12,777 nucleotides of DNA from Candidatus Brocadiia bacterium. Its GTDB lineage: Bacteria; Planctomycetota; Brocadiia; SM23-32. Both the position numbers and the translations under genes were made by a program. The stretch spans positions 1 through 12,777 of the forward strand of contig JBKHIT010000094.1 of the NCBI GenBank assembly GCA_046538485.1. Reading direction: 5' to 3'. Under the pieces are notes generated by a model that saw only the letters and a program-made list of their open reading frames with translations, ran no database searches and was not told where the DNA came from. Positions 3,041 to 12,777 of the stretch are shown here, in pieces. How positions within the stretch are numbered: position 1 is the stretch's first letter; the number at the start of each line of letters is the position of its first letter.

Positions 3041-3102
3041 ATATGTTTCTTAGAGTGCTTCTCGTGCTCAGCCAAATACCCTCAGGGAGAGGCGATTCAG
3101 CA

Positions 3103-6100
3103 GTGGAAGAAAAGAAAACACAGTCAAAACCCAGTCGTTATCGCCTTGTAGAGCTTTTAAATGAAGGCATTTACGGAAAAGTTTACAAAGCTCACGATAC
3201 GGAAAAAGATCAGGAAGTACGCTTGAAGCTGATTTCTTCTTCCGTGAGCCGCGACCCCAGTTTCCGCCGATATATCCATGATCGATGGGCGGCTCGCCAG
3301 AAGCTCTTCGAGCACCCGAACCTTGTCGACCTGGTCGAGGTTGGTAAAACCGGCAACCGCTATTTTATGGCCGTTGAAGATCCGGGTGGAATCAGCCTTG
3401 CCGAAAGGCTCAAGGATGCTCCTCTGGAAACGTCAGAGGCTATCGATATTCTTCACCAAATCGCGGAAGGCCTCAGAGCGGTCCACCGCTGCGATATCGC
3501 CCACGGTCATCTCAAACCTTCCGATGTGTTCATCACCCGAGAAGGTGGATCAGCCCCCGTCGTAAAGATCACGGTCCTGGATATGGGGGCAACCGCGGAA
3601 GATAGCATTATTCCAATATTTGGCGAAGCACACGGCGCTCCCCAGTATATGGCTCCAGAAGTGATTCGAGGTAGATCTCCAGGTCCTCAGGCCGATATTT
3701 TCGCCCTCGGAATCATCGGATATCAGCTCTTGACCGGAAAAGATCCATTTAAATCTTCTCATCCGCTCGGATACCTTTTCGCCAACGTGGAAAGCGAACT
3801 GATTCCACCTCATAAGGTTAATGAGAACGTCCCTCATGAACTCTCGCTGGTAGTCAGCCGTTGCCTGGAACGCGATCCCAACCGCAGATATGGAACAACC
3901 CAACGCGTAATTGACGACCTCGATCGGTGTCTCGAAACAATTCACACGGGGCAGGCCCAGGTCATTCCGAAAGGAACCGATTCTGCTTTTGCGCGGGAAT
4001 ATGAATTACCTGGGCCTTCCGATGATTCGCAAACATCGAAGAGAAGAATCCCGGGGGTGAGCGTGGCAGCGCTGGTCCTGGCTTTTATTGCGTTAATAGT
4101 TTCAGTTGCGCTAAATTCCGGGTCTTTTGGGGGTGATGAAAGGGAACCAACGGATGGACCACAACAAGCTCTCGTGGACAATAATGTGACAGACACAACA
4201 GCCGGAACATCCAAGCAAGAAAAATCCCAAACCCCTGAGGCACAGAAACAAAAGGCGAAAGAACAAGCACGTCTTGAGGCGGCCAGGCACGAATTCAATT
4301 CGGCAGATCAGGATTACCGACAGAGATATAGCCTCAAGGGCAATTACGAAATTGCTATCGGTGCTTTCAAAAGCATTGCGAAACAATATCAAGACACACC
4401 GTACGCTTCGAAAGCACGAGATAAGATTGCCCAGGTTTATTGCGAATGGGCTCGCGCTCTGAGTAATGACGCAGATCATGCAGGCGCTCAGGAAAAATAC
4501 GAAGCCGCAATAAAAAACGCCCCCGAAGGCAGCCAGTATCTGAAAATCGCCAGGAGCAAACTCCCAATTGTGATGGCCAAGCGCGCACAATATTGCCAAA
4601 AACGAGGCATCTACGACCAAGCGCATGAACTCTATAAAACACTCGCGAAAGAATTCCCAGAGACCGATCAGGCTCAACTCCTGGCAAAGCACGAACCCCG
4701 CCAGTTGCTCGAATATAGTATGTTTTTGTGGGAGGAAGGGGATAAAACCGCAAGTGCTCTGGACAAAATGGAACTCCTTGTTGAAAAATATCCCGACAGC
4801 CCGGAAGCCGCGGAAGCCCAAAAAAGACTTCCAGAGCTGCGAGTCGAGATGGCTTCAAACGCTCATAAAAACGGAGAACTCACCACCGCCCTGGCAATCG
4901 TAAGGAAAATACAAAAAGACGATGGGCAAGAGCTGGGGCGGCAAGCCGCAAACCTTGAAGCAAACGTGCTCTTTGACCTCTACCAAGAAGCAAAGCAAAC
5001 GGGGAAAGATCAAAGAGCGCACAGTTACAGAAACCAACTCCTGGAAAAACACCCGGAAAGCACGGCTGGTCAGCAATTTCTCAGGGAAAAATTGGGTCTT
5101 ACACCGGGAGCAGAGGAAAATTATATTCCTGAAAAAACTGCACAAAATTACTACCGTGAAGTTGAACAGCTTGTTCAAGATTTCCGGTACAGCGCCGCGT
5201 TCGACAAAATGCAGAATATCGTGCGGTACTCAAAAGCGGATTCGGAATTGGCAAACAAAGTCCTGCGCCAGCTGCCGTGGTGCCTCTATCGGGCGGCACT
5301 TCAGGATTATGGGCTCGGCAACAAGGACAAATTCACCGAAAAAATACGGCGCCTGAGAACGGATTTTGAGGGCAGCAAATGGGCAACAAAAGCCGAAAAA
5401 ACCCAGGACTATGTCCGCAATGCTCCCGCCGGAATGATTTACATCCCGGAAGGGAATTTTTTCATTGGATCCACCAAAGATCAAATCACACAGTTCCTTG
5501 AGCCCTTTTACCCGCCCCGCATTTTGAATAGCGAAAATGAACTCGAACTTATCCTTACCCTCGTGGGGTACGGGTCGGAAATCCCCATGTATTCCGATAA
5601 TACTGAGGCGTATTATATTGATAAAACCGAAGTGACAAACGCGGAATACCAGAAGTTCATCGACGCCACGGACCATCCTGCTCCCCACGGGTGGGAGGAA
5701 AGGCATTTTCCAAAAGACCAGGCCAATCTCCCGGTCACTGGAGTTTCGCTTAAAGACGCTCGGGCCTATGCGAAATGGGCAGGCAAACGACTCCCAACGG
5801 AAGCTCAATGGGAAAAAGCCGCCCGAGGTCCCGACCAGAGGCCTTTCCCCTGGGGTGAGAGCTTTGATCCGAAAGCATGCAATCACATGAAGCCAAGCAA
5901 AGAAGGTCCGGTCGCGGTCGGGAGCTACCCTGCCGGTGCGAGTCCATATGGCGTCCTCGATATGATCGGAAACGTTTGGGAATGGACATCCAGTCCGTTC
6001 AAACGCTATCCCGGCAATGATCTGGAAGATCGAAGAGCATCATATGGGGAAAAACACCGCGTGGTGCGCGGTGGAGCATGGCCCCAGCATGACATCAAAC

Positions 6101-6192
6101 CAATTCCCGTGCGTGTTACCTATCGACTCCCCATCAAACCGGAGAACCGGGGAGCGGATCTCGGATTCCGCTGTGTCAAAGATATCGAATGA
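3103..6192 (+). CDS. Membrane-anchored Hanks-type Ser/Thr kinase-like protein (probable pseudokinase) with TM helix, TPR-like repeats and C-terminal FGE-sulfatase (SUMF1/CLec-fold) domain
   Basis: Kinase fold motifs EGIYGKVYKA, VRLK, HPNLV, HGHLKPSDV, LDMG, PQYMAPE, ADIFALG, CLERDPNRRY. TM segment GVSVAALVLAFIALIVSVAL (~4050-4113). Helical TPR-like region ~4270-5420. FGE domain MIYIPEGNF, IDKTEVTNAEY, RLPTEAQWEKAARG, DMIGNVWEWT, RVVRGGAW, LGFRCV. Start chosen as in-frame GTG 3103 with RBS AGGGAGAGG at 3084-3092 (ORF track starts at 3043). Confidence 0.88.
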   Translation: MEEKKTQSKPSRYRLVELLNEGIYGKVYKAHDTEKDQEVRLKLISSSVSRDPSFRRYIHDRWAARQKLFEHPNLVDLVEVGKTGNRYFMAVEDPGGISLAERLKDAPLETSEAIDILHQIAEGLRAVHRCDIAHGHLKPSDVFITREGGSAPVVKITVLDMGATAEDSIIPIFGEAHGAPQYMAPEVIRGRSPGPQADIFALGIIGYQLLTGKDPFKSSHPLGYLFANVESELIPPHKVNENVPHELSLVVSRCLERDPNRRYGTTQRVIDDLDRCLETIHTGQAQVIPKGTDSAFAREYELPGPSDDSQTSKRRIPGVSVAALVLAFIALIVSVALNSGSFGGDEREPTDGPQQALVDNNVTDTTAGTSKQEKSQTPEAQKQKAKEQARLEAARHEFNSADQDYRQRYSLKGNYEIAIGAFKSIAKQYQDTPYASKARDKIAQVYCEWARALSNDADHAGAQEKYEAAIKNAPEGSQYLKIARSKLPIVMAKRAQYCQKRGIYDQAHELYKTLAKEFPETDQAQLLAKHEPRQLLEYSMFLWEEGDKTASALDKMELLVEKYPDSPEAAEAQKRLPELRVEMASNAHKNGELTTALAIVRKIQKDDGQELGRQAANLEANVLFDLYQEAKQTGKDQRAHSYRNQLLEKHPESTAGQQFLREKLGLTPGAEENYIPEKTAQNYYREVEQLVQDFRYSAAFDKMQNIVRYSKADSELANKVLRQLPWCLYRAALQDYGLGNKDKFTEKIRRLRTDFEGSKWATKAEKTQDYVRNAPAGMIYIPEGNFFIGSTKDQITQFLEPFYPPRILNSENELELILTLVGYGSEIPMYSDNTEAYYIDKTEVTNAEYQKFIDATDHPAPHGWEERHFPKDQANLPVTGVSLKDARAYAKWAGKRLPTEAQWEKAARGPDQRPFPWGESFDPKACNHMKPSKEGPVAVGSYPAGASPYGVLDMIGNVWEWTSSPFKRYPGNDLEDRRASYGEKHRVVRGGAWPQHDIKPIPVRVTYRLPIKPENRGADLGFRCVKDIE

Positions 6193-6266
6193 GCCGCCTC
6201 CGTTGCTGTTCTCTTAAACGCTAAAACCGCCGGCTTTCCTCAGCTCTCCGGCGGGTGGGCCCCGGC

Positions 6267-7124
6267 ATGCAGACAAAAAACCCCACCAAAATCGGCTTTC
6301 AAAAACATCAGCAGGGCAAGGTAACGGTGTATTTTGACCCCGCCTTCGTTCCCGCATCCGCTGTCGAAAATCTATTGACTTTACCTGAAACCCTGCAAAC
6401 TATGGCGGGCCGCGATTCGCGTTCCGCAGGCCATAAAAGCGTTTGGACGTGGGAACCGGAATGGAGCGGAACCACCAAATTTGTTGTCCGAAAATACATG
6501 CACGGCGGCCTTTTGAGACACGTATGGCGCGATTGGTTCCTGCAGCGGGGCCCGATGTTCCGCGAACTCAACATTGCGCGACATCTCCAGAGAAATGGGG
6601 TGCCAACCCCCTCTCCTGTTGCGCTTCGCTTACAAAAGCTGCTTGGACCTGTTCACAGAGCACATTATATCAGCCAAAAAGTGCTGGATTCCGTCGACCT
6701 TTTGAGCCTCTGCCGGAAATTCCTGGAATCAACTGCCCCGCCGCCAGAAGTCCGTCAATCACTCGCTTCAGCTATTGCATCATTGCTTTTCCGTCTGCAC
6801 GAAGCAGGAATTTGCCATAAAGATTTGAACCTGAAAAACATTCTTTTAAGCCCGGAAACCAGTCCCACCAGAGCGTTCATTATCGATTTCAAAAAAGCCG
6901 TGTGGAAAGAAGAGATAACCCTGCGCGAGGGATTTGAGAATCTCGTCCGACTCGACCGGTCGATCGTGAAATGGGCCGCTTCCCGAAAATTTCTAACCCT
7001 TTCTGACCGGCTCCGCGTGCTCCGGAACTACATTCGTCTGCGGGGGGGACAAAATCGCGGCTGGAAAGATATCGCACGGGGAATCCTCACCCATCATCGC
7101 CTCCACTCCCTCACCAGAAAATGA
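6267..7124 (+). CDS. Kdo kinase (KdkA)-like / lipopolysaccharide kinase (Kdo/WaaP family)
   Basis: VVRKYMHGGLL (cf. KdkA-type VLRHYxRGG), GVPTP, LHEAGICHKDLNLKNILL (cf. HxDLNxxNIL), IIDFKK, NLVRLDRS (cf. NLxRLxRS). Immediately upstream of kdsD-kdsC. Start ATG 6267 or GTG 6255. Confidence 0.78.
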   Translation: MQTKNPTKIGFQKHQQGKVTVYFDPAFVPASAVENLLTLPETLQTMAGRDSRSAGHKSVWTWEPEWSGTTKFVVRKYMHGGLLRHVWRDWFLQRGPMFRELNIARHLQRNGVPTPSPVALRLQKLLGPVHRAHYISQKVLDSVDLLSLCRKFLESTAPPPEVRQSLASAIASLLFRLHEAGICHKDLNLKNILLSPETSPTRAFIIDFKKAVWKEEITLREGFENLVRLDRSIVKWAASRKFLTLSDRLRVLRNYIRLRGGQNRGWKDIARGILTHHRLHSLTRK

Positions 7125-7155
7125 CGGCACAACCGCCCTGCCAGAAGGCTGCGTC

Positions 7156-7184
7156 TTGAGCCTCCGTCAAGAGCCGGTTATAAT
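7156..7184 (+). promoter_or_regulatory. Putative sigma70 promoter for kdsD-kdsC, overlapped by an inverted repeat
   Basis: TTGAGC (7156-7161), 17-nt spacer, perfect TATAAT (7179-7184). TCTTGA-N7-TCAAGA (7154-7172) overlaps the -35 box. Confidence 0.6.
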
Positions 7185-7226
7185 CCTCGCCACAGCGGTG
7201 ATCTATTTTCTAATCTGGGATCTGCA

Positions 7227-8216
7227 ATGGATATCATCAAGCGTGGACGAAAAATCATTGAACTGGAAAGCCGCTCTCTCGAAACAGTGGCCCGAAATCT
7301 GGGTCCAGAGTTCGAAGATGCCGTGCAGGCCACTTATGACTGCAAGGGCCGCGTCGTTGTTACTGGGGTAGGAAAAGCCGGGTTGATCGGGAAAAAAATT
7401 TCGGCAACTCTTGCAAGCACTGGCACCCCATCATACTGGATGCATGCCGTCGAAGCCCGACATGGCGACCTGGGTCGTGTTCTCCCGGAAGATATCGCCC
7501 TTGTTTTCAGCAACAGTGGCGAAACCGAAGTTACAAAATTGCTGGTCCCCTTGAAAAAATTGCACACCCAGATCATCGCCGTGACAGGCAATCCGCATTC
7601 TACACTTGGGCAATACAGCGATATTACGTTGAGTATTGGCAAAATGGAAGAGGCATGCCCGCTGGGGCTCGCCCCCTCAGCCACGACAACGGCCATGCTG
7701 GCCGTCGGCGATGCTCTGGCGCTTACGGTTTTCGAAATGCGCGACATGACAAAAGAAGACTACGCATTCTTTCATCCCGGCGGTGAACTTGGCCGCAAAC
7801 TGATAAAAGTCGAAGAAACAATGAGAATCGGCGAACGCAATCCAGTGGTCTCACAGGACTGCACACTGGAAAAAGCGCTTGAAATCATGAGTATCGAAGG
7901 TTCCCCGGGCGCCGTCAGCCTCGTCGATAAAGACGGCAAGCTGGTGGGCTTTTTTACCGATGGCGACCTCCGGCGTCTTATCAAACAAAAAGGCCCCGAC
8001 ACCTTCCATCTGCCGATGAAAGACATTATGACCAAAGGCCCCAAAACCGTTCGCACCGACGACCTGGCCGCGGACGCTTATCGGATAATGCGAGATATGC
8101 GAATTGATAATTTACCCGTAGTGGATGAAGACGGCACTCCCGTAGGAATCATCGACGTCCAGGACTGGCTCGACGTCGAAAGAGGCGTTGAGAGCCCTGC
8201 CGGTGAAGAAACGTAA
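7227..8216 (+). CDS. kdsD: D-arabinose 5-phosphate isomerase (KpsF/GutQ family; SIS domain plus CBS pair)
   Basis: GRVVVTGVGKAGLIGKKISATLASTGTPS, EARHGDLG, SNSGET, EACPLGLAPSATTTAMLAVGDALA, FHPGGELG, GFFTDGDLRR and a C-terminal CBS pair; adjacent to kdsC. Confidence 0.93.
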   Translation: MDIIKRGRKIIELESRSLETVARNLGPEFEDAVQATYDCKGRVVVTGVGKAGLIGKKISATLASTGTPSYWMHAVEARHGDLGRVLPEDIALVFSNSGETEVTKLLVPLKKLHTQIIAVTGNPHSTLGQYSDITLSIGKMEEACPLGLAPSATTTAMLAVGDALALTVFEMRDMTKEDYAFFHPGGELGRKLIKVEETMRIGERNPVVSQDCTLEKALEIMSIEGSPGAVSLVDKDGKLVGFFTDGDLRRLIKQKGPDTFHLPMKDIMTKGPKTVRTDDLAADAYRIMRDMRIDNLPVVDEDGTPVGIIDVQDWLDVERGVESPAGEET

Positions 8217-8249
8217 GATCTTTCAACTCAATCTCAGTGAGCCTGGCTT

Positions 8250-8801
8250 ATGAGTTCGACATCACAATCCGATCCAGAGATCGACCAAAAATTAAACAAC
8301 ATTAAACTTATGGCCATGGATGTTGACGGTGTTCTGACTGATGGCCTGGCATTTTACGGCAGTGACGGATTCGAAGGCCTTTCTTTCGATGTCCAGGATG
8401 GCTCGGGGATCAAATACCTCCAGCGAAACGGGATTGAAATTGCCCTGATTACCGGGCGGTCGGTGCCGGCTGTGCGCGAACGCGCTGAGACTCTGGGCAT
8501 CGAATACCTCTACCAGGGCGCGAAAGTAAAACTGGACGCTTACAAAGACCTCAAAAACAGAACCGGTTTCACCGATCAACAAATCGGCTATGCGGGCGAT
8601 GACCTCCCTGATATACCGCTGCTGCGCACCGTCGGATTGGCCGTCGCTGTCGCCAATGCCCGCGAAGAGATTAAACAGCTCGCTGACATCGTTACTACGG
8701 CCCCGGGCGGGCACGGTGCCATTCGCGAAATCGCTGAAATAATATTGAAAAGCCGTGGGACGTGGGAAAGTGTGCTGAACCGTTATTTTGAGATGACATG
8801 A
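8250..8801 (+). CDS. kdsC: 3-deoxy-D-manno-octulosonate 8-phosphate phosphatase (HAD, YrbI family)
   Basis: MDVDGVLTDG, FDVQDGSGI, ITGR, YQG..K, GDDLPD, GGHGAIRE; directly follows kdsD. Confidence 0.92.
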   Translation: MSSTSQSDPEIDQKLNNIKLMAMDVDGVLTDGLAFYGSDGFEGLSFDVQDGSGIKYLQRNGIEIALITGRSVPAVRERAETLGIEYLYQGAKVKLDAYKDLKNRTGFTDQQIGYAGDDLPDIPLLRTVGLAVAVANAREEIKQLADIVTTAPGGHGAIREIAEIILKSRGTWESVLNRYFEMT

Positions 8802-8973
8802 ACCGTGATCAAAAGAACCAAAAAATCGATCTGTTTTTCTCAGATAACATTTTCCCTTACTGGTTTAACAGAATAGCAGCTGGGCTCTGATCTAAAGACA
8901 GAAACTGTTTCACACTTTGCCGGACCATTTACCATAAAATGTGCGTTTTCACTCTCAAAGAGAGGTCAGAACA

Positions 8974-9801
8974 ATGACGGATAATGAACTGCAGCTCGAC
9001 CTGACGGGGGAAAACATCGTGCTCACGGGCGGCGCAGGCGTTCTCTGCGGCGTGATGGCCGAGGCGCTCGCCGAACGAGGCGCCGCCGTTGCATTGCTCG
9101 ATATCGATGAAGAAATGGCGGAAAAAAAGGCCTGCGCAATCAGAGATGCCGGCGGAGACGCGGTCGCGGTCATCTGCAACGTCCTCGACCGGGAGGATCT
9201 GGAGCATGCCCGAACTCTCGTCAAAGAAGCCATCGGCACCCCGACAGTTCTGATAAACGGTGCCGGAGGTAACAAATCAGATGCCACCACCGGCCCGGAC
9301 AAGGAATTTTTCGACCTGCCGGCCGATGCCGTGGAATGGGTCTTTAACCTCAATTTCGTCGGCACCTTTCTGGCATCTCAGGTTTTCGGCGAAGAAATGG
9401 CACTGGGAGAGGGAGGAAATATAATTAACATCTCAAGTATGAATGCCTTCCGCCCTCTCACCAAAATTCCCGCATACAGCGGCGCCAAAGCGGCCGTAAG
9501 CAATTTTACCCAATGGCTCGCGGTCCATATGAGCCAGAACTACAAACCGGTCGTCCGGGTCAACGCCATCGCACCTGGATTCTTCCTGACAAATCAGAAC
9601 CGTTTTCTTTTGATGGACGAAGAAACAGAAGATCTAACGCCACGCGGTTCTACAATCATCGATCACACCCCGATGGGTCGTTTCGGCGACCCCGAAGAGC
9701 TTGTCGGCACCATCTTGTGGTTGCTCAGCGACTCATCCAAATTTGTTCATGGAATCGTCGTCCCGATCGATGGAGGTTTCAGCGCATTCAGCGGAGTTTA
9801 A
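8974..9801 (+). CDS. SDR-family oxidoreductase, D-mannonate oxidoreductase (fructuronate reductase, SDR-type UxuB)-like
   Basis: TGGAGVLC Rossmann motif, LINGAGGN, NISSMNAFRPLTKIPAYSGAK (YxxxK), FTQWLAVH, RVNAIAPGFFLTNQNR, TPMGRFG, IDGGFSAFSGV, matching the SDR-type mannonate oxidoreductase subfamily. Start ATG 8974 after GAGAGG. Confidence 0.85.
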   Translation: MTDNELQLDLTGENIVLTGGAGVLCGVMAEALAERGAAVALLDIDEEMAEKKACAIRDAGGDAVAVICNVLDREDLEHARTLVKEAIGTPTVLINGAGGNKSDATTGPDKEFFDLPADAVEWVFNLNFVGTFLASQVFGEEMALGEGGNIINISSMNAFRPLTKIPAYSGAKAAVSNFTQWLAVHMSQNYKPVVRVNAIAPGFFLTNQNRFLLMDEETEDLTPRGSTIIDHTPMGRFGDPEELVGTILWLLSDSSKFVHGIVVPIDGGFSAFSGV

Positions 9802-9840
9802 TCGGCTCATCATCATTGTTCAGACGGAGGCACATAAACA

Positions 9841-11130
9841 ATGGCCAATATTGGAAACGTTGTCGTTGCTCAATCCGGGGGCCCCTCCCCCGTCATCAAC
9901 AGTTCTCTGCTCGGTGTCATCCGCGCCTGCCAAAATTACCCGGATGAATTCGGGACTATCTACGGAGGCTGGCATGGAATCGAAGGGATCCTGCAGGAAG
10001 AACTCATAAATCTCTCCGAGCAACCGGAGGAAGAAATATCACTACTTCGCACCACTCCCGCAGCCGGTGCGATCGGGACCTGTCGCTACAAACTGAAAGA
10101 AGGTCAGGACGAAGATTTCGACCGAATCATCGAGATCTTCAAAGCCCACCACGTCGGATGCTTCTTCTATATCGGCGGTAACGATTCTATGGATACCGCC
10201 AATAAAGTGGCCGAGCTGGCAGCTGAACAGGGGCTCGATCTCATATCCGTAGGCGTGCCCAAAACGATCGATAACGACGTCGGCGACTCGGAGTTCGAGC
10301 TGATCGATCACACGCCCGGTTACGGAAGCGTGGCGCGTTACTGGAGTCATATTGTTCAGAACGCGAATGAGGAAAACCGGGGTTCCTGTCCTTCCGATCC
10401 AGTGCTGATCCTGCAGGCCATGGGACGACGCATAGGATTCATCCCCGCCGCCGCCCGGCTGGCTGACCCAAAACGGGAAATGCCGCTCCAGATTTACATG
10501 GCGGAGAGCGGTGTCGATCTCGAACAGCTTACCGATAATGTCAACGACTCCCTCAAAAAATACGGCCGTTGCGTCCTGGTGGTCAGTGAAGGTTTCGATG
10601 TCGGTGAACTCGGCGAGAGCCGGGATCATTTCGGCCACGTTCAATTCAGCTCAAGCGAGACAACCGTCTGCCAGACGCTCATCAACTATCTCAACAGCGT
10701 CGGTCTGCCCGTTCCCGGGTCCGCCCGTGGTCAGGTCTACGGGACCGACCAGCGCGACACAATGATCTATGCGTCCACCGTCGATCTCGACGAAGCGCAG
10801 AAAGTCGGCCAAAAAGCCGTCGAAATCGCCGTCAGCGAAGGGAGCGGTTATATGGCCACCATCCTGCGAAAATCCGGCGATATCTACGGGGTAGAATACG
10901 ACAAAGTGCCGCTCGATAAAGTCGCCAACAGCGAGCGGGAATTCCCACCCGACTGGATCAGTGAAGATCGCATCGACGTAACCGATGGCTTCCTCAACTA
11001 CGCACGCCCGCTTATCGGCGAAGATTGGGTGAGTGTCCCGATGGTCAACGGGCGACAGCGTTTCGCAAAACTCGAAGCTATCTTTGCCGAACAAAAATTG
11101 GATAAATACGTGCCGCAAGCAAAAAGATAA
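9841..11130 (+). CDS. PfkA-family, pyrophosphate-dependent-type phosphotransferase; sugar substrate uncertain
   Basis: AQSGGPSPVIN, IGTCRYKL, YIGGNDSMDT (Asp at the PPi-specificity position), VPKTIDND (Lys), QAMGR, VSEG, GTDQR. RBS GGAGG upstream. Confidence 0.88.
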   Translation: MANIGNVVVAQSGGPSPVINSSLLGVIRACQNYPDEFGTIYGGWHGIEGILQEELINLSEQPEEEISLLRTTPAAGAIGTCRYKLKEGQDEDFDRIIEIFKAHHVGCFFYIGGNDSMDTANKVAELAAEQGLDLISVGVPKTIDNDVGDSEFELIDHTPGYGSVARYWSHIVQNANEENRGSCPSDPVLILQAMGRRIGFIPAAARLADPKREMPLQIYMAESGVDLEQLTDNVNDSLKKYGRCVLVVSEGFDVGELGESRDHFGHVQFSSSETTVCQTLINYLNSVGLPVPGSARGQVYGTDQRDTMIYASTVDLDEAQKVGQKAVEIAVSEGSGYMATILRKSGDIYGVEYDKVPLDKVANSEREFPPDWISEDRIDVTDGFLNYARPLIGEDWVSVPMVNGRQRFAKLEAIFAEQKLDKYVPQAKR

Positions 11131-11185
11131 TCCCTGCGAAAATCTCGATACTTTGACCAAACTCATTTTCCGAAAGGAGTTCGTT

Positions 11186-12073
11186 GTGGCTGACCCGCAA
11201 GCACCTCTGAGAGATTTCGAACCCGCGCATGATTTTATCGTAGCAATCGACTCCGACGGTTGCGCGTTCAACACGATGGAAGTCAAACACAAGGCCTGTT
11301 TCTATCCCATGGTCGTCCGACACTGGGGGCTGGCCGGAATCGCCAAACAAACCCGTGACGTCTGGGATTTTGTCAATCTTTATTCCACCACCCGCGGATG
11401 CAACCGTTTCCACGCGCTGATCCACACACTGGATTTCGTGCGCGAGATGGAAAGTGTCAGGGAAAGTGAAGTCGAGGTGCCCCAGGCCGCCGGCGTGCGG
11501 GAATGGAAGGAACGGGAAACGAAACTCGGCAACCCGGCCCTGAAAGCCGAAGTGGGAAAAAATCCGGATCCTGATCTTAAACGGGCTCTCGGATGGTCCC
11601 TCGACATCAATAAACAGGTCGAGAAAACGGTCAAAAACGTCCCGCCCTTCCCTCTTGTGCGGGATTCTCTCGAAAAAATCACGCCCCGGGCGGACGCCAT
11701 CGTGGTTTCCGCAACCCCCAACGAGGCGCTGAAACGCGAATGGGAAGAACACGACATTGCACAATACGTCGAGGTTATCGCCGGACAGGAACGGGGTAGC
11801 AAAGCAGAACACCTCAGTCTCGCCGCCGAGCCCAACTACCCATCCGATCACATTCTGATGGTCGGCGATTCTCCGGGCGATATGAAATCAGCAAAATCCG
11901 TTGACGCCCTCTTTTTTCCGATCTTCCCCGGGGAAGAAGAACATTCCTGGGAAATCTTCTACAACGAGGCGCTCGACAAATTCTTCGCGGGCGAATACGC
12001 GGGGAGCTACGAGCAGGAGCTGATCGACGAATACAACCAGCACCTGCCGGAAACACCCCCGTGGAAGGAATAG
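11186..12073 (+). CDS. HAD-superfamily phosphatase (295 aa)
   Basis: Motif I IDSDGC (DxD), motif II VVSAT, motif III K (GSKAEH), motif IV MVGDSPGD. Start reassigned to in-frame GTG 11186 with AAGGAG at 11174-11179; the ORF-track start 11033 overlaps the upstream gene. Confidence 0.88.
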   Translation: MADPQAPLRDFEPAHDFIVAIDSDGCAFNTMEVKHKACFYPMVVRHWGLAGIAKQTRDVWDFVNLYSTTRGCNRFHALIHTLDFVREMESVRESEVEVPQAAGVREWKERETKLGNPALKAEVGKNPDPDLKRALGWSLDINKQVEKTVKNVPPFPLVRDSLEKITPRADAIVVSATPNEALKREWEEHDIAQYVEVIAGQERGSKAEHLSLAAEPNYPSDHILMVGDSPGDMKSAKSVDALFFPIFPGEEEHSWEIFYNEALDKFFAGEYAGSYEQELIDEYNQHLPETPPWKE

Positions 12074-12110
12074 CTCCTTAATTCCCGCACAAAACGCGTC
12101 AGGAAGGAGG

Positions 12111-12199
12111 CGGGGCCAGATACAGGTTCGCCAGCAGAGGCGATATCACAGCCCCCTGCGGGTGCCTCGCTCCGGTGTCCAGAGTTCCGCGCCTTCCAA
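12111..12199 (-). pseudogene. Frameshifted fragment of a group II intron-type reverse transcriptase (PQG motif region)
   Basis: Minus strand TTG GAA GGC GCG GAA CTC TGG ACA CCG GAG CGA GGC ACC = LEGAELWTPERGT, then after a 1-nt deletion (nt 12160-12162) CCG CAG GGG GCT GTG ATA TCG CCT CTG CTG GCG AAC CTG TAT CTG GCC CCG = PQGAVISPLLANLYLAP; stop at 12101-12099. GTPQGxxxSPLLANxYL is the hallmark of group II intron RTs. Confidence 0.88.
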
Positions 12200-12503
12200 G
12201 GAATTTGCGATGTAGGTCTTTTCACTGCCCGGGAGCCGGACATTCCCCGAAAATCCCGGCGGACGTCTGCTCTCGGTCGGGGCGCAAATTCCTGAATTTT
12301 CCTTCGGAACAGAATGCTGGATTCAGCCATCCCGGATCCCGTTCCCTGAGCTGGGATCACTGGATAGCCTCGTAGCCAAACCGTTGACAGGCAAGCGGAC
12401 TGGACTTCAGAACCGCTCTCGCGGGGCTGGAGTTCAGAACGCGGTCCATCACCCGGCCGATCTTCCCGCAAACCAGTGATGTTCACGGCACCGGCCCGCG
12501 CAA
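12111..12503 (-). mobile_element. Truncated, internally deleted group II intron remnant: putative 5' end and domain I-like RNA joined to the RT fragment
   Basis: Upstream of the RT fragment: candidate 5' boundary TTGCG (12503-12499, a variant of GUGYG), nested stems (GCGG..CTGAAGTCCAG..CCGC; CTATCC/GATCCC..GGGATC/GGATGG; CCCCGA..TCGGGG) and a perfect 11-bp inverted repeat (12199-12209 / 12283-12293). No domain V/VI or YADD motif seen. The RNA assignment is an inference. Confidence 0.5.
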
Positions 12504-12598
12504 CGTCCCGCGCGCCAACGGCGCGCTATGGACTGCGGTGTGTTAAAACGGGCCGAAGACGCGTACCTGTTTAGCGTATCAATTGCCGTTCCAAAAGA

Positions 12599-12752
12599 GG
12601 CCCGTAGGGCCGGATCAGACGTAGCGCCGGGCGAGCCCGGGCTATTGCGGGGAGCCCGGGGTTAGGGGTTTGAGGGACGTGCCGGCTGCTTCCCAATGCT
12701 AACCCGGGGCTCGTTCGGCCAAAACAGCGGCCTCATTTCGCCCCGGGCTACG
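12599..12752. repeat. Inverted pair of GTAG-type REP-like palindromes (REPIN-like) plus a small flanking hairpin
   Basis: Copy 1 (+, 12620-12665): CGTAGCGCCGGGCGA...GAGCCCGGGGTTAG. Copy 2 (-, 12752-12699): CGTAGCCCGGGGCGA...GAGCCCCGGGTTAG. Each is an internal palindrome starting with GTAG; spacer 33 nt. Hairpin GGCCC-GTA-GGGCC at 12599-12611. Confidence 0.65.
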
Positions 12753-12777
12753 GCGTGAATTGTCGTGATAGAGCACC

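What the first reader, a model, noticed from the sequence alone, without database searches (positions are those of the whole stretch)
8974..12073. SDR + PPi-type kinase + HAD phosphatase operon: candidate non-canonical hexuronate pathway via phosphorylated intermediates
Seen: three co-oriented genes with gaps of 39 and 55 nt, each with a good RBS. Known: the classical hexuronate isomerase route (UxaC, UxuB/UxaB, UxuA/UxaA, KdgK, KdgA) has no PfkA-type kinase or HAD phosphatase, and fructuronate and tagaturonate are ketoses with a free C1-OH like fructose 6-phosphate. Inference: the kinase phosphorylates a keto-uronate such as tagaturonate at C1 using PPi, an epimerase encoded elsewhere converts it, the HAD releases fructuronate, and the SDR reduces it to mannonate. 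This would bypass UxaB/UxaA or UxaE. The epimerase is not in this window, and related routes may already be described, so check the literature.
Basis: partly seen in the sequence, partly recalled or inferred. Interest (0 to 1): 0.7.

Follow-up and report, generated by a model that had tools for sequence, protein, structure and literature searches.

The report
Sugar-acid operon with substitute kinase pair
These three genes are half of a widely conserved gene set that most likely channels uronic and other sugar acids into the pentose phosphate pathway, with an untested phosphofructokinase-like enzyme and a partner phosphatase where an ordinary sugar-acid kinase would be expected.

Summary
Three co-oriented genes lie at 8974-9801 (SDR), 9841-11130 (PfkA-family, PPi-type) and 11186-12073 (HAD). 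The gaps are 39 and 55 nt, and each gene has a Shine-Dalgarno-like site.

The trio is not a chance neighbourhood. Around 80 relatives of the HAD from at least ten phyla I found Gnd in 54, the PFK-like gene in 37, a LarA-family hexonate epimerase in 36, and also the SDR, UxaE and UxaC. In this genome the other half of the set (LarA homologue, PdxB-like dehydrogenase, Gnd) lies on contig C87.

No gluconokinase, UxuA or UxaE was found in this genome.

My best reading (confidence 0.45) is fructuronate to mannonate (SDR), C2 epimerisation (LarA), phosphorylation by the PFK-like kinase, then 6-phosphogluconate to ribulose-5-P (Gnd). The HAD would be an editing phosphatase.

The main rival (0.3) is a housekeeping pentose-phosphate module in which the PFK phosphorylates sedoheptulose-7-P. 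This was proposed in print for a planctomycete.

Its specific tagaturonate-1-P bypass is not.

Earlier notes of this scan flagged the same cluster in four other genomes.

This is a new variant of a known pathway. The kinase and phosphatase roles are untested.

The parts
8960..8965 (+). Shine-Dalgarno-like GAGAGG, 8 nt before the SDR start
   Evidence: read
8974..9801 (+). SDR, 275 aa, D-mannonate oxidoreductase (fructuronate reductase) subfamily
   Evidence: NF006132 370.8 bits against cut-off 281. Pfam adh_short_C2. Best solved relative 4wuv, E 9e-79. Orthologues at 51-67% identity in HAD loci.
9826..9830 (+). Shine-Dalgarno-like GGAGG, 10 nt before the PFK start
   Evidence: read
9841..11130 (+). 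PfkA-family kinase, 429 aa, PPi-type signature, Thr at the position of E. coli His249 ('T-type')
   Evidence: PF00365 121 bits. NF010675 378.5 bits. PDB 3k2q and 3hno, E about 1e-69. Residue table.
11174..11179 (+). Shine-Dalgarno-like AAGGAG, 6 nt before the GTG start of the HAD gene
   Evidence: read
11186..12073 (+). HAD-superfamily hydrolase, 295 aa, subfamily-IA-like core with a large cap of about 130 residues, no named subfamily
   Evidence: HAD_2 30.6 bits. No NCBIfam hit. No PDB sequence hit. 7179 homologues at E <= 0.001. Invariant D22-S-D24, S175/T177, K206, D228/D232. AF2 model pLDDT 94.

Best explanation
The three genes form one unit and are one half of a conserved sugar-acid module that feeds the pentose phosphate pathway. 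The full set seen in other phyla is (UxaC, UxaE) - SDR - PfkA-like kinase - HAD - LarA-family nickel-pincer 2-epimerase - 6-phosphogluconate dehydrogenase. In this genome the LarA homologue, a PdxB-like 2-hydroxyacid dehydrogenase and Gnd sit on contig C87. The window breaks off in dispersed repeats right after the HAD gene.

Proposed flow:
1. Fructuronate (5-keto-hexonate) is reduced to D-mannonate by the SDR.
2. C2 is epimerised by the LarA homologue, either before phosphorylation (mannonate to gluconate) or after it (6-P-mannonate to 6-P-gluconate).
3. The PfkA-like enzyme supplies the phosphorylation, probably from PPi. It takes the place of gluconokinase, which these genomes lack.
4. Gnd converts 6-phosphogluconate to ribulose-5-P.
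5. The HAD is a phosphatase that travels with the kinase and with Gnd. It most likely hydrolyses a phospho-sugar-acid that is a dead end or inhibits Gnd, such as a wrongly phosphorylated epimer or 4-phosphoerythronate. In other words, it proofreads.

Shown here: gene order, family membership, conserved linkage, co-occurrence, and absence of the usual kinases.
Inferred: the substrates of the kinase, the HAD and the LarA homologue, and the order of steps.
For: Linkage over 80 HAD loci: Gnd 54, PFK homologue 37 (all 37 also have LarA or Gnd), LarA homologue 36, SDR at >=45% identity 18, UxaE 19, UxaC 7, PFK directly upstream of HAD 22. Full operons such as UxaC-UxaE-SDR-PFK-HAD-LarA-Gnd occur in L067 and L081. 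Family identities of the neighbours: gnd 778 bits, NPN_18_hexonate 646 bits against cut-off 500, UxaE 576, UxaC 680.

Own genome: C87 carries a LarA homologue (NF052594, 179.8 bits), a PdxB-like gene (396.6 bits) and Gnd (743 bits). The own LarA type is 52-65% identical to LarA genes inside PFK-HAD loci elsewhere. LarC for the nickel cofactor is present.

Missing kinase: no P-loop GntK and no FGGY GntK over cut-off in the own genome. Across 40 HAD genomes, GntK is over cut-off in 1 of 40 and FGGY GntK in 0 of 40.

PFK residues: the catalytic and PPi-signature positions are kept (all 37 linked PFKs; 36 of 36 at the R252 position, where one is cut). The His249-equivalent, a 6-phosphate ligand, is Thr in 35 of 36 (Val in 1). 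It is His in E. coli PfkA and both own paralogues, and Tyr in 3k2q, 3hno and an unlinked paralogue. The genome has two other PFKs for glycolysis.

Co-occurrence in 201 genomes of the phylum: HAD 31, T-type PFK 30, both 24, including complete genomes where the two genes are far apart.

Precedent: the T. maritima GntE/GntK/Gnd proposal and GntE activity (PMC7583248); the L. suebicus mannonate kinase and 6-P-mannonate epimerase (PMC6978723); 4-phosphoerythronate inhibits 6PGDH and is removed by HAD-type phosphatases (PMC6449344 abstract).
Against: No enzyme of the PfkA family is known to act on a non-phosphorylated sugar acid (my knowledge; searches found none). Two of the four 6-phosphate ligands (Arg243 and Arg252 equivalents) are retained, so a phosphorylated ketose remains possible.

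Six genomes with PFK-HAD(-Gnd) have no LarA homologue at E <= 1e-20.

This genome has no UxaE, only a weak UxaC-like gene in an unrelated context, and no transaldolase. The last point fits the rival.

In Thermogutta terrifontis the apparently equivalent genes were not induced on glucuronate-containing xanthan gum: THTE_2629 PFK fold change 0.87, THTE_2630 0.56, THTE_2631 Gnd 0.94, THTE_2632 SDR 0.95. Equivalence there is judged from gene names and order only.

A phosphatase beside a kinase has no required step in the pathway, so its editing role is conjecture. The HAD also occurs next to Gnd in genomes where no close PFK-type relative (no match above 38% identity) was found. The genome is 88% complete, so absences are weak evidence.
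Confidence: 0.45

Rival explanations
1. Housekeeping pentose-phosphate module. The PfkA-like enzyme is a reversible PPi-dependent kinase for sedoheptulose-7-P and/or fructose-6-P that replaces transaldolase through sedoheptulose-1,7-bisphosphate and aldolase. Gnd is the oxidative branch. The HAD either removes 4-phosphoerythronate (made from erythrose-4-P, a Gnd inhibitor) or acts as the missing FBP/SBP phosphatase. The SDR and LarA genes are neighbours because sugar acids also end in this pathway.
For: The family match is to PPi-PFK (NF010675), with the relatives 3k2q and 3hno. No transaldolase was found in the own genome. The same reading is published for the planctomycete T. terrifontis, which has no transaldolase and where THTE_2629 next to Gnd THTE_2631 is listed as 'S-7-P phosphorylating' and is expressed constitutively. 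PFK-HAD-Gnd trios occur without a LarA homologue in six genomes. The HAD-Gnd pair occurs without a close PFK-type relative (no match above 38% identity) in Poribacteria. A PdxB-like (4-phosphoerythronate dehydrogenase family) gene lies beside Gnd here and in 4 of 80 loci. 26 of 41 HAD genomes have no FBPase of classes I, II, III or V.
Against: 17 of 20 genomes with the close PFK type in the HAD locus do have a transaldolase-family gene. The linked PFKs differ from the S7P/F6P-type relatives at the His249/Tyr position (Thr in 35 of 36). Genomes carry separate Tyr-type PPi-PFKs as well. This reading leaves the LarA/SDR/UxaC/UxaE-Gnd clusters without any hexonate kinase. A kinase co-transcribed with its own reverse phosphatase would cycle futilely.
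Confidence: 0.3
2. The kinase phosphorylates tagaturonate at C1 with PPi, an unseen epimerase converts it, the HAD releases fructuronate, and the SDR makes mannonate. This would bypass UxaB/UxaA or UxaE.
For: A kinase and a phosphatase lie in one unit. UxaE was not found in this genome. A keto-uronate is a plausible mimic of fructose-6-P (inference).
Against: UxaE sits inside the same clusters in 16-19 of 80 loci, so nothing needs bypassing there. UxuA, which would use the mannonate, was not found. The conserved partners are LarA and Gnd. No aldolase-fold epimerase recurs among neighbour clusters.
Confidence: 0.03
3. The HAD, not the PFK, carries out the phosphorylation as a phosphotransferase. 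It would pass phosphate from a bisphosphate sugar made by the PFK, or from another donor, to the hexonate.
For: Clusters with UxaC/UxaE/SDR/HAD/LarA/Gnd but no PfkA-like gene exist (L023, L045, L046, L048, L068). HAD mutases use aspartyl-phosphate transfer from bisphosphate sugars (established knowledge). beta-Phosphoglucomutase is among the nearest folds.
Against: Two of those clusters have a KdgK-like PfkB kinase nearby (L045, L068). The published group-18 context lists a ribokinase-family kinase in 4 of 25. No HAD intermolecular sugar-acid kinase is known (my knowledge).
Confidence: 0.07

Closest known systems
Thermotoga maritima hexuronate branch UxaE - SDR fructuronate reductase - GntE (LarAH20) - GntK - Gnd (Rodionova et al. 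2012, as cited in PMC7583248 and PMC6978723; GntE2 activity shown in PMC7583248)
   Same: It has an SDR-type mannonate oxidoreductase, a LarA-family C2 epimerase and Gnd in one gene set. Sugar acids end as 6-phosphogluconate and ribulose-5-P rather than KDG.
   Different: There is no GntK of either type. A PfkA-family gene plus a HAD gene sit in its place. The LarA homologue here is a different group: nearest to group 18 but under its cut-off (179.8 against 500 bits). UxaE was not found in this genome.
Lactobacillus suebicus galacturonate route: mannonate kinase plus 6-phosphomannonate 2-epimerase (Valk et al. 2020, PMC6978723)
   Same: It gives a measured precedent for phosphorylated hexonate intermediates between mannonate and 6-phosphogluconate. 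The genes for both steps are unassigned there.
   Different: Those activities were ATP-dependent in cell extracts. No PfkA-like or HAD gene is named in the passages read (term 'phosphatase' has 0 occurrences). Nothing shows that the enzymes here are the same.
PPi-dependent phosphofructokinases of the Methylococcus capsulatus type (NCBIfam NF010675; PDB 3k2q, 3hno), proposed as S7P kinases in transaldolase-free planctomycetes (PMC5673643)
   Same: The fold and the catalytic residues are the same, as are Asp at the E. coli Gly104 position and Lys at the Gly124 position.
   Different: Thr replaces the Tyr/His that contacts the sugar 6-phosphate, and Pro or Thr replaces the Lys/Arg162-equivalent. 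It is only about 35-40% identical and is tightly linked to HAD, LarA and Gnd.
HAD-type metabolite-repair phosphatases (yeast Pho13, mammalian PGP) that destroy 4-phosphoerythronate, an inhibitor of 6PGDH; CpgA in B. subtilis (PMC6449344 abstract)
   Same: It is a HAD-fold phosphatase functionally tied to 6-phosphogluconate dehydrogenase. A gene of the 4-phosphoerythronate dehydrogenase family is nearby.
   Different: No detectable sequence relationship to a named subfamily. The cap is a different, enlarged C1-type. Nearest folds score only TM about 0.5 (MtlD phosphatase domain, beta-PGM, Gph). The substrate is unknown.

Membership tests
SDR D-mannonate oxidoreductase subfamily (NCBIfam NF006132) | Profile score over the curated cut-off | tested here: met
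   370.8 bits against cut-off 281
SDR D-mannonate oxidoreductase subfamily (NCBIfam NF006132) | Glycine-rich cofactor motif and the catalytic Ser ... Tyr-x-x-x-Lys (motif definitions recalled) | tested here: met
   TGGAGVLCG, SSMNA and YSGAK read in the translation
SDR D-mannonate oxidoreductase subfamily (NCBIfam NF006132) | Reduces D-fructuronate to D-mannonate | not testable with these tools
   Needs an enzyme assay
PfkA family / PPi-PFK (PF00365, NF010675) | Profile scores over the cut-offs | tested here: met
   121.3 bits against 30.9; 378.5 bits against 273
PfkA family / PPi-PFK (PF00365, NF010675) | Catalytic residues at the positions of E. coli Arg72, Asp127, Arg171, Glu222 and Arg252 | tested here: met
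   Conserved in the window protein and in all 37 linked homologues (36 of 36 for Arg252, one sequence cut)
PfkA family / PPi-PFK (PF00365, NF010675) | PPi signature: Asp at the E. coli Gly104 position and Lys at the Gly124 position (meaning recalled) | tested here: met
   D115 and K141; 37 of 37
PfkA family / PPi-PFK (PF00365, NF010675) | Full set of fructose-6-P 6-phosphate ligands (E. coli Arg162, Arg243, His249, Arg252; Tyr for His in PPi enzymes) | tested here: not met
   The window has Pro187, Arg296, Thr302 and Arg305. Thr occurs in 35 of 36 linked PFKs, against His or Tyr in the reference and unlinked enzymes.
HAD superfamily phosphatase | Motifs I-IV with the nucleophile Asp and Asp+2 | tested here: met
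   D22-S-D24, S175/T177, K206 and D228/D232 are invariant in 24 sequences. Rossmannoid core plus cap in the model, pLDDT 94. HAD folds are the top matches.
HAD superfamily phosphatase | Belongs to a named, characterised subfamily | tested here: not met
   0 NCBIfam families. 0 PDB sequences at E <= 1. The Atlas gives only generic HAD names.
Hexuronate to 6-phosphogluconate pathway (T. maritima type) | UxaC and UxaE present | tested here: inconclusive
   Own genome: UxaE not found; one divergent UxaC-like gene at 61 bits. Genome 88% complete. Both are present in related clusters.
Hexuronate to 6-phosphogluconate pathway (T. maritima type) | LarA-family gluconate/mannonate 2-epimerase and Gnd | tested here: met
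   C87: a LarA homologue (nearest group 18, 179.8 bits, under the cut-off) and Gnd at 743 bits. LarC is present. Epimerase activity was not tested.
Hexuronate to 6-phosphogluconate pathway (T. maritima type) | Gluconokinase GntK | tested here: not met
   No P-loop GntK and no FGGY GntK over the cut-off. Across HAD genomes: 1 of 40 and 0 of 40.
Classical isomerase pathway (UxuA/KdgK/KdgA) | Mannonate dehydratase UxuA | tested here: not met
   No match in the own genome. KdgK and KdgA were not searched.

The most novel reading that the evidence does not exclude
The Thr-type PfkA enzymes are PPi-driven kinases for keto-uronates. They would phosphorylate fructuronate at C1, so every later step runs on phosphorylated intermediates: 1-P-fructuronate to 6-P-mannonate (SDR), then to 6-P-gluconate (LarA homologue), then to ribulose-5-P (Gnd). 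The conserved HAD would be their obligate editing phosphatase. This would give genes to the unassigned mannonate-kinase and 6-P-mannonate-epimerase steps, and would be the first PfkA-family enzyme acting on a sugar acid.
Probability: 0.15. Interest if true: 0.75.

Novelty: new variant of a known kind. Interest (0 to 1): 0.55.

Why it matters
Uronic acids from pectin, xanthan, alginate-like and animal glycans are major carbon sources. The route from mannonate to 6-phosphogluconate is redox-neutral and of biotechnological interest, but its kinase and epimerase genes are not settled. The gene set described here recurs in at least ten phyla. The HAD family has more than 7000 homologues and no named function. 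If the PfkA-like enzyme is a PPi-dependent sugar-acid kinase, that would widen the chemistry of a textbook family and save one ATP per uronate. If instead the pair is a pentose-phosphate repair or bypass module, it would explain how many transaldolase- or FBPase-free bacteria run central metabolism. Either answer can be reached with simple enzyme assays.

Tried and rejected
1. PFK as a general transaldolase substitute. A transaldolase-family gene is present in 17 of 20 genomes that carry the close PFK type in the HAD locus, so this cannot be the general explanation. It is kept as a rival for this transaldolase-free genome.

2. PFK-HAD fusion as Rosetta-stone evidence. The one 'fusion' (P0126, 681 aa) is a frameshift-garbled reading of adjacent PFK and HAD genes. 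I rejected it. The real fusions (P0123-P0125) join a Cof-type HAD-IIB to this HAD and did not clarify function.

3. Complex prediction of PFK with HAD: no answer.

4. HAD as a replacement 6-phosphogluconolactonase. The only 'pgl' hit in the genome is NagB, so DevB-type Pgl was not found. But DxD HAD chemistry does not fit lactone hydrolysis, and I did not pursue it.

5. PfkB kinases next to the HAD (L068, L080, L045) as clean non-orthologous replacements of the PFK. They look like KDG kinases, so this is ambiguous.

6. Sequence and fold searches gave the HAD no specific name.

7. The promoter and terminator scan was not above chance.

8. Public runs: no RNA holder listed. No reads were laid.

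9. I tested whether C86 and C87 abut. Both contig ends are dispersed repeats shared with many contigs, so adjacency can be neither shown nor excluded.


Full report
**Observation.** The window carries, on the + strand, an SDR gene (ATG 8974 to stop 9801), a PfkA-family gene (9841-11130) and a HAD gene (GTG 11186 to 12073).
- The gaps are 39 and 55 nt.
- Shine-Dalgarno-like hexamers lie 8, 10 and 6 nt before the three starts (read).
- The GTG start of the HAD is fixed by alignment with 23 homologues.
- Upstream, after a 172-nt gap, lie a Kdo-kinase-like gene, KdsD and KdsC.
- Downstream, 12074-12777 holds no convincing gene. It is built of short dispersed repeats that recur on many contigs, often at their ends. 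This explains why the contig stops there.
- A consensus promoter and terminator scan was not above shuffled expectation.

**Family identity.**
- *SDR.* It passes the curated cut-off of the D-mannonate oxidoreductase subfamily (NF006132, 370.8 against 281 bits). Its best solved relative is 4wuv.
- *Kinase.* It passes PF00365 and the PPi-PFK subfamily NF010675 (378.5 against 273 bits). Its nearest structures are 3k2q and 3hno (E about 1e-69).
- *HAD.* It matches only the generic HAD_2 model (30.6 bits), no NCBIfam model and no solved sequence.
  - It has 7179 homologues at E <= 0.001 among 8000 scored candidates. The best 120 are 55-100% identical and nearly all 294-296 aa.
  - The four HAD motifs are invariant.
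  - An AlphaFold2 model (pLDDT 94) shows a HAD-IA-like core with a large helical cap.
  - Foldseek finds only distant relatives: the MtlD mannitol-1-P phosphatase domain, beta-phosphoglucomutase and phosphoglycolate phosphatases, at TM about 0.4-0.5.

**Conserved neighbourhood.** A scan of one genome per species with the HAD alignment gave 582 confirmed relatives. The best 80 loci were kept. They come from Planctomycetota, Spirochaetota, Poribacteria, Bacteroidota, Ignavibacteria/Melioribacteraceae, Verrucomicrobiota, Acidobacteriota, Firmicutes, Elusimicrobia, Calditrichota and others.

By tblastn over all 80 loci:

| Neighbour within 6 kb | Loci of 80 |
|---|---|
| Gnd | 54 |
| PFK homologue | 37 (27 at >=60% identity, 10 at about 40%) |
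| LarA-family homologue | 36 |
| SDR at >=45% identity | 18 |
| UxaE | 19 |
| UxaC | 7 |
| GhrB-like 2-hydroxyacid dehydrogenase | 14 |
| PdxB-like dehydrogenase | 4 |
| None of these | 10 |

- Independent clustering gave 46, 30, 29, 26, 16 and 11 loci for Gnd, PFK, LarA, SDR, UxaE and UxaC. That method undercounts where antisense ORFs were picked.
- The PFK gene is directly upstream of the HAD on the same strand in 22 loci.
- Representative neighbours are secure: gnd 778 bits, 'nickel-dependent putative hexonate epimerase' NF052594 646 bits (cut-off 500), UxaE 576 bits, UxaC 680 bits.
- Complete arrangements such as UxaC-UxaE-SDR-PFK-HAD-LarA-Gnd occur in L067 and L081.

**The rest of the set in this genome.** Contig C87 carries three relevant genes:
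- a LarA homologue, nearest to NF052594 but under its cut-off at 179.8 bits;
- a PdxB-like dehydrogenase (396.6 bits against cut-off 434);
- Gnd (743 bits).

The own LarA type is 52-65% identical to LarA genes that sit inside PFK-HAD loci in other genomes. LarC for the nickel-pincer cofactor is present, as is Zwf.

Not found in this 88%-complete genome:
- UxaE and UxuA;
- P-loop GntK and FGGY GntK over cut-off;
- transaldolase and DevB-type Pgl (the only hit is NagB);
- FBPase of classes I, II, III or V.

One divergent UxaC-like gene (61 bits) lies in an uninformative context. Two further PFK genes exist, on C48 and C78.

**The kinase.** I aligned it with E. coli PfkA (fetched), the two own paralogues and 37 linked homologues.
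- The catalytic positions (Arg72, Asp127, Arg171, Glu222, Arg252) and the PPi signature (Asp at Gly104, Lys at Gly124; meaning recalled) are all kept.
- The His249-equivalent is one of the ligands of the sugar 6-phosphate. It is Thr in 35 of 36 linked PFKs (Val in one).
- That position is His in E. coli PfkA and both own paralogues. It is Tyr in 3k2q, 3hno and unlinked paralogues.
- The Arg162-equivalent is Pro (26), Thr (9), Lys (1) or Ser (1).
- The Thr signature is shared by two subgroups that are only about 40% identical to each other. Both are linked to the HAD.

**Tests between readings.**
- *Missing kinase.* Recognised gluconokinases are nearly absent from HAD genomes: P-loop GntK over cut-off in 1 of 40 and FGGY GntK in 0 of 40. 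Yet 32 of 40 have a LarA homologue of this kind. So a hexonate kinase is missing, and the PFK-like gene is the best candidate.
- *Transaldolase.* A transaldolase-family gene is present in 29 of 40, and in 17 of the 20 with the close PFK type in the locus. The PFK is therefore not a general transaldolase substitute.
- *Co-occurrence.* In an even sample of 201 genomes of the window's phylum, the HAD is in 31, the T-type PFK (E <= 1e-100) in 30 and both in 24. Seven have the HAD alone and six the PFK alone. These genomes are related and partly incomplete, so this is a description and not a test. Still, it includes complete genomes where the two genes are far apart.
- *Points against the best reading.*
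  - Six genomes with PFK-HAD(-Gnd) have no LarA homologue.
  - Five genomes with HAD-Gnd have no close PFK-type relative: no match above 38% identity.
  - Three genomes with full uronate-LarA-Gnd clusters show no T-type PFK. Two of these have a KdgK-like PfkB kinase near the HAD.

**Literature.**
- Desguin et al. 2020 (PMC7583248; passages and supplement searched by terms) showed that LarAH19 and LarAH20 epimerise mannonate and gluconate. They hypothesised a hexonate for group 18.
- Their context table for the 25 group-18 members lists SDR 9, Gnd 8, ribokinase-family kinase 4 and UxaC 3. The terms phosphofructokinase, haloacid, COG0205, COG0546 and COG0637 do not occur in it.
- PMC11770544 (passages) adds further gluconate epimerases.
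- Valk et al. [quoted passage not shown]
- Elcheninov et al. 2017 (PMC5673643; passages and supplement) list THTE_2629 as a PPi-PFK presumed to phosphorylate sedoheptulose-7-P in a transaldolase-free planctomycete, THTE_2631 as Gnd and THTE_2632 as an SDR.
- Expression of these genes on xanthan gum against trehalose was unchanged or lower (fold changes 0.87, 0.56 for THTE_2630, 0.94, 0.95). I could not check that THTE_2630 is the HAD.
- 4-Phosphoerythronate inhibits 6PGDH and is removed by HAD-type phosphatases or by CpgA (PMC6449344, abstract in the listing).
- Searches for a PfkA-type enzyme on uronates or hexonates found nothing. Subscription journals are not covered.

**Earlier notes of this scan.** Four notes on other genomes describe the same cluster and reach a similar reading. 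I had reached mine before reading them, and I treat them as leads only.

**Verdict.** It is wrong in mechanism: no tagaturonate-1-P bypass, and the sink is 6-phosphogluconate and Gnd, not mannonate and UxuA.

| Reading | Confidence |
|---|---|
| Substitute kinase for a hexonate or keto-uronate, with the HAD as editing phosphatase | 0.45 |
| Pentose-phosphate module | 0.3 |

The roles of the kinase and the HAD are inferred, not shown.

Noticed in passing
window 12074-12777: The non-coding tail after the HAD gene is a mosaic of short dispersed repeats. One example is 12394-12444, which is 90-98% identical to dozens of places. The repeats occur on very many contigs of the genome, often at contig ends. 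This is probably why the assembly breaks here.
   Followed up: partly
window 3043-6192: A 1049-aa protein fuses a Ser/Thr kinase domain, TPR-like repeats and a C-terminal FGE-sulfatase (formylglycine-generating enzyme-like) domain.
   Followed up: no
window 6255-8801; L065 3825-4367; L070 6976-7479: A Kdo-kinase-like gene, KdsD (arabinose-5-P isomerase, which uses the Gnd product ribulose-5-P) and KdsC lie just upstream of the trio. A KdsC homologue (42-43% identity) also follows the HAD gene in two acidobacterial loci.
   Followed up: no
G000 contig C87 143-1477 (locus L090); L010, L014, L026, L041, L085 and others: Two LarA types sit in HAD loci. One is group 18 proper (over 500 bits). The other scores only about 180 bits to that model, and the own gene belongs to it. 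The second type may be an undescribed LarA group.
   Followed up: partly
L106, L107, L111 (loci): A third subtype of NF010675-like PFK paralogues has Glu/Ser/Met at the positions of E. coli Arg243, His249 and Arg252. It is unlikely to bind fructose-6-P in the usual way.
   Followed up: no
proteins P0123-P0125: These are natural fusions of a Cof-type HAD-IIB phosphatase domain with a member of this HAD family at 40-42% identity.
   Followed up: no
genomes G000-G040 (handles): 26 of 41 genomes carrying this HAD, including three Poribacteria chromosome-level assemblies, show no FBPase of classes I, II, III or V. The HAD could be considered as a candidate bisphosphatase.
   Followed up: partly
G008: L022 and L051: One Bacteroidota genome has two PFK-HAD pairs. 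One lies with UxaE-SDR-LarA and the other with Gnd.
   Followed up: no
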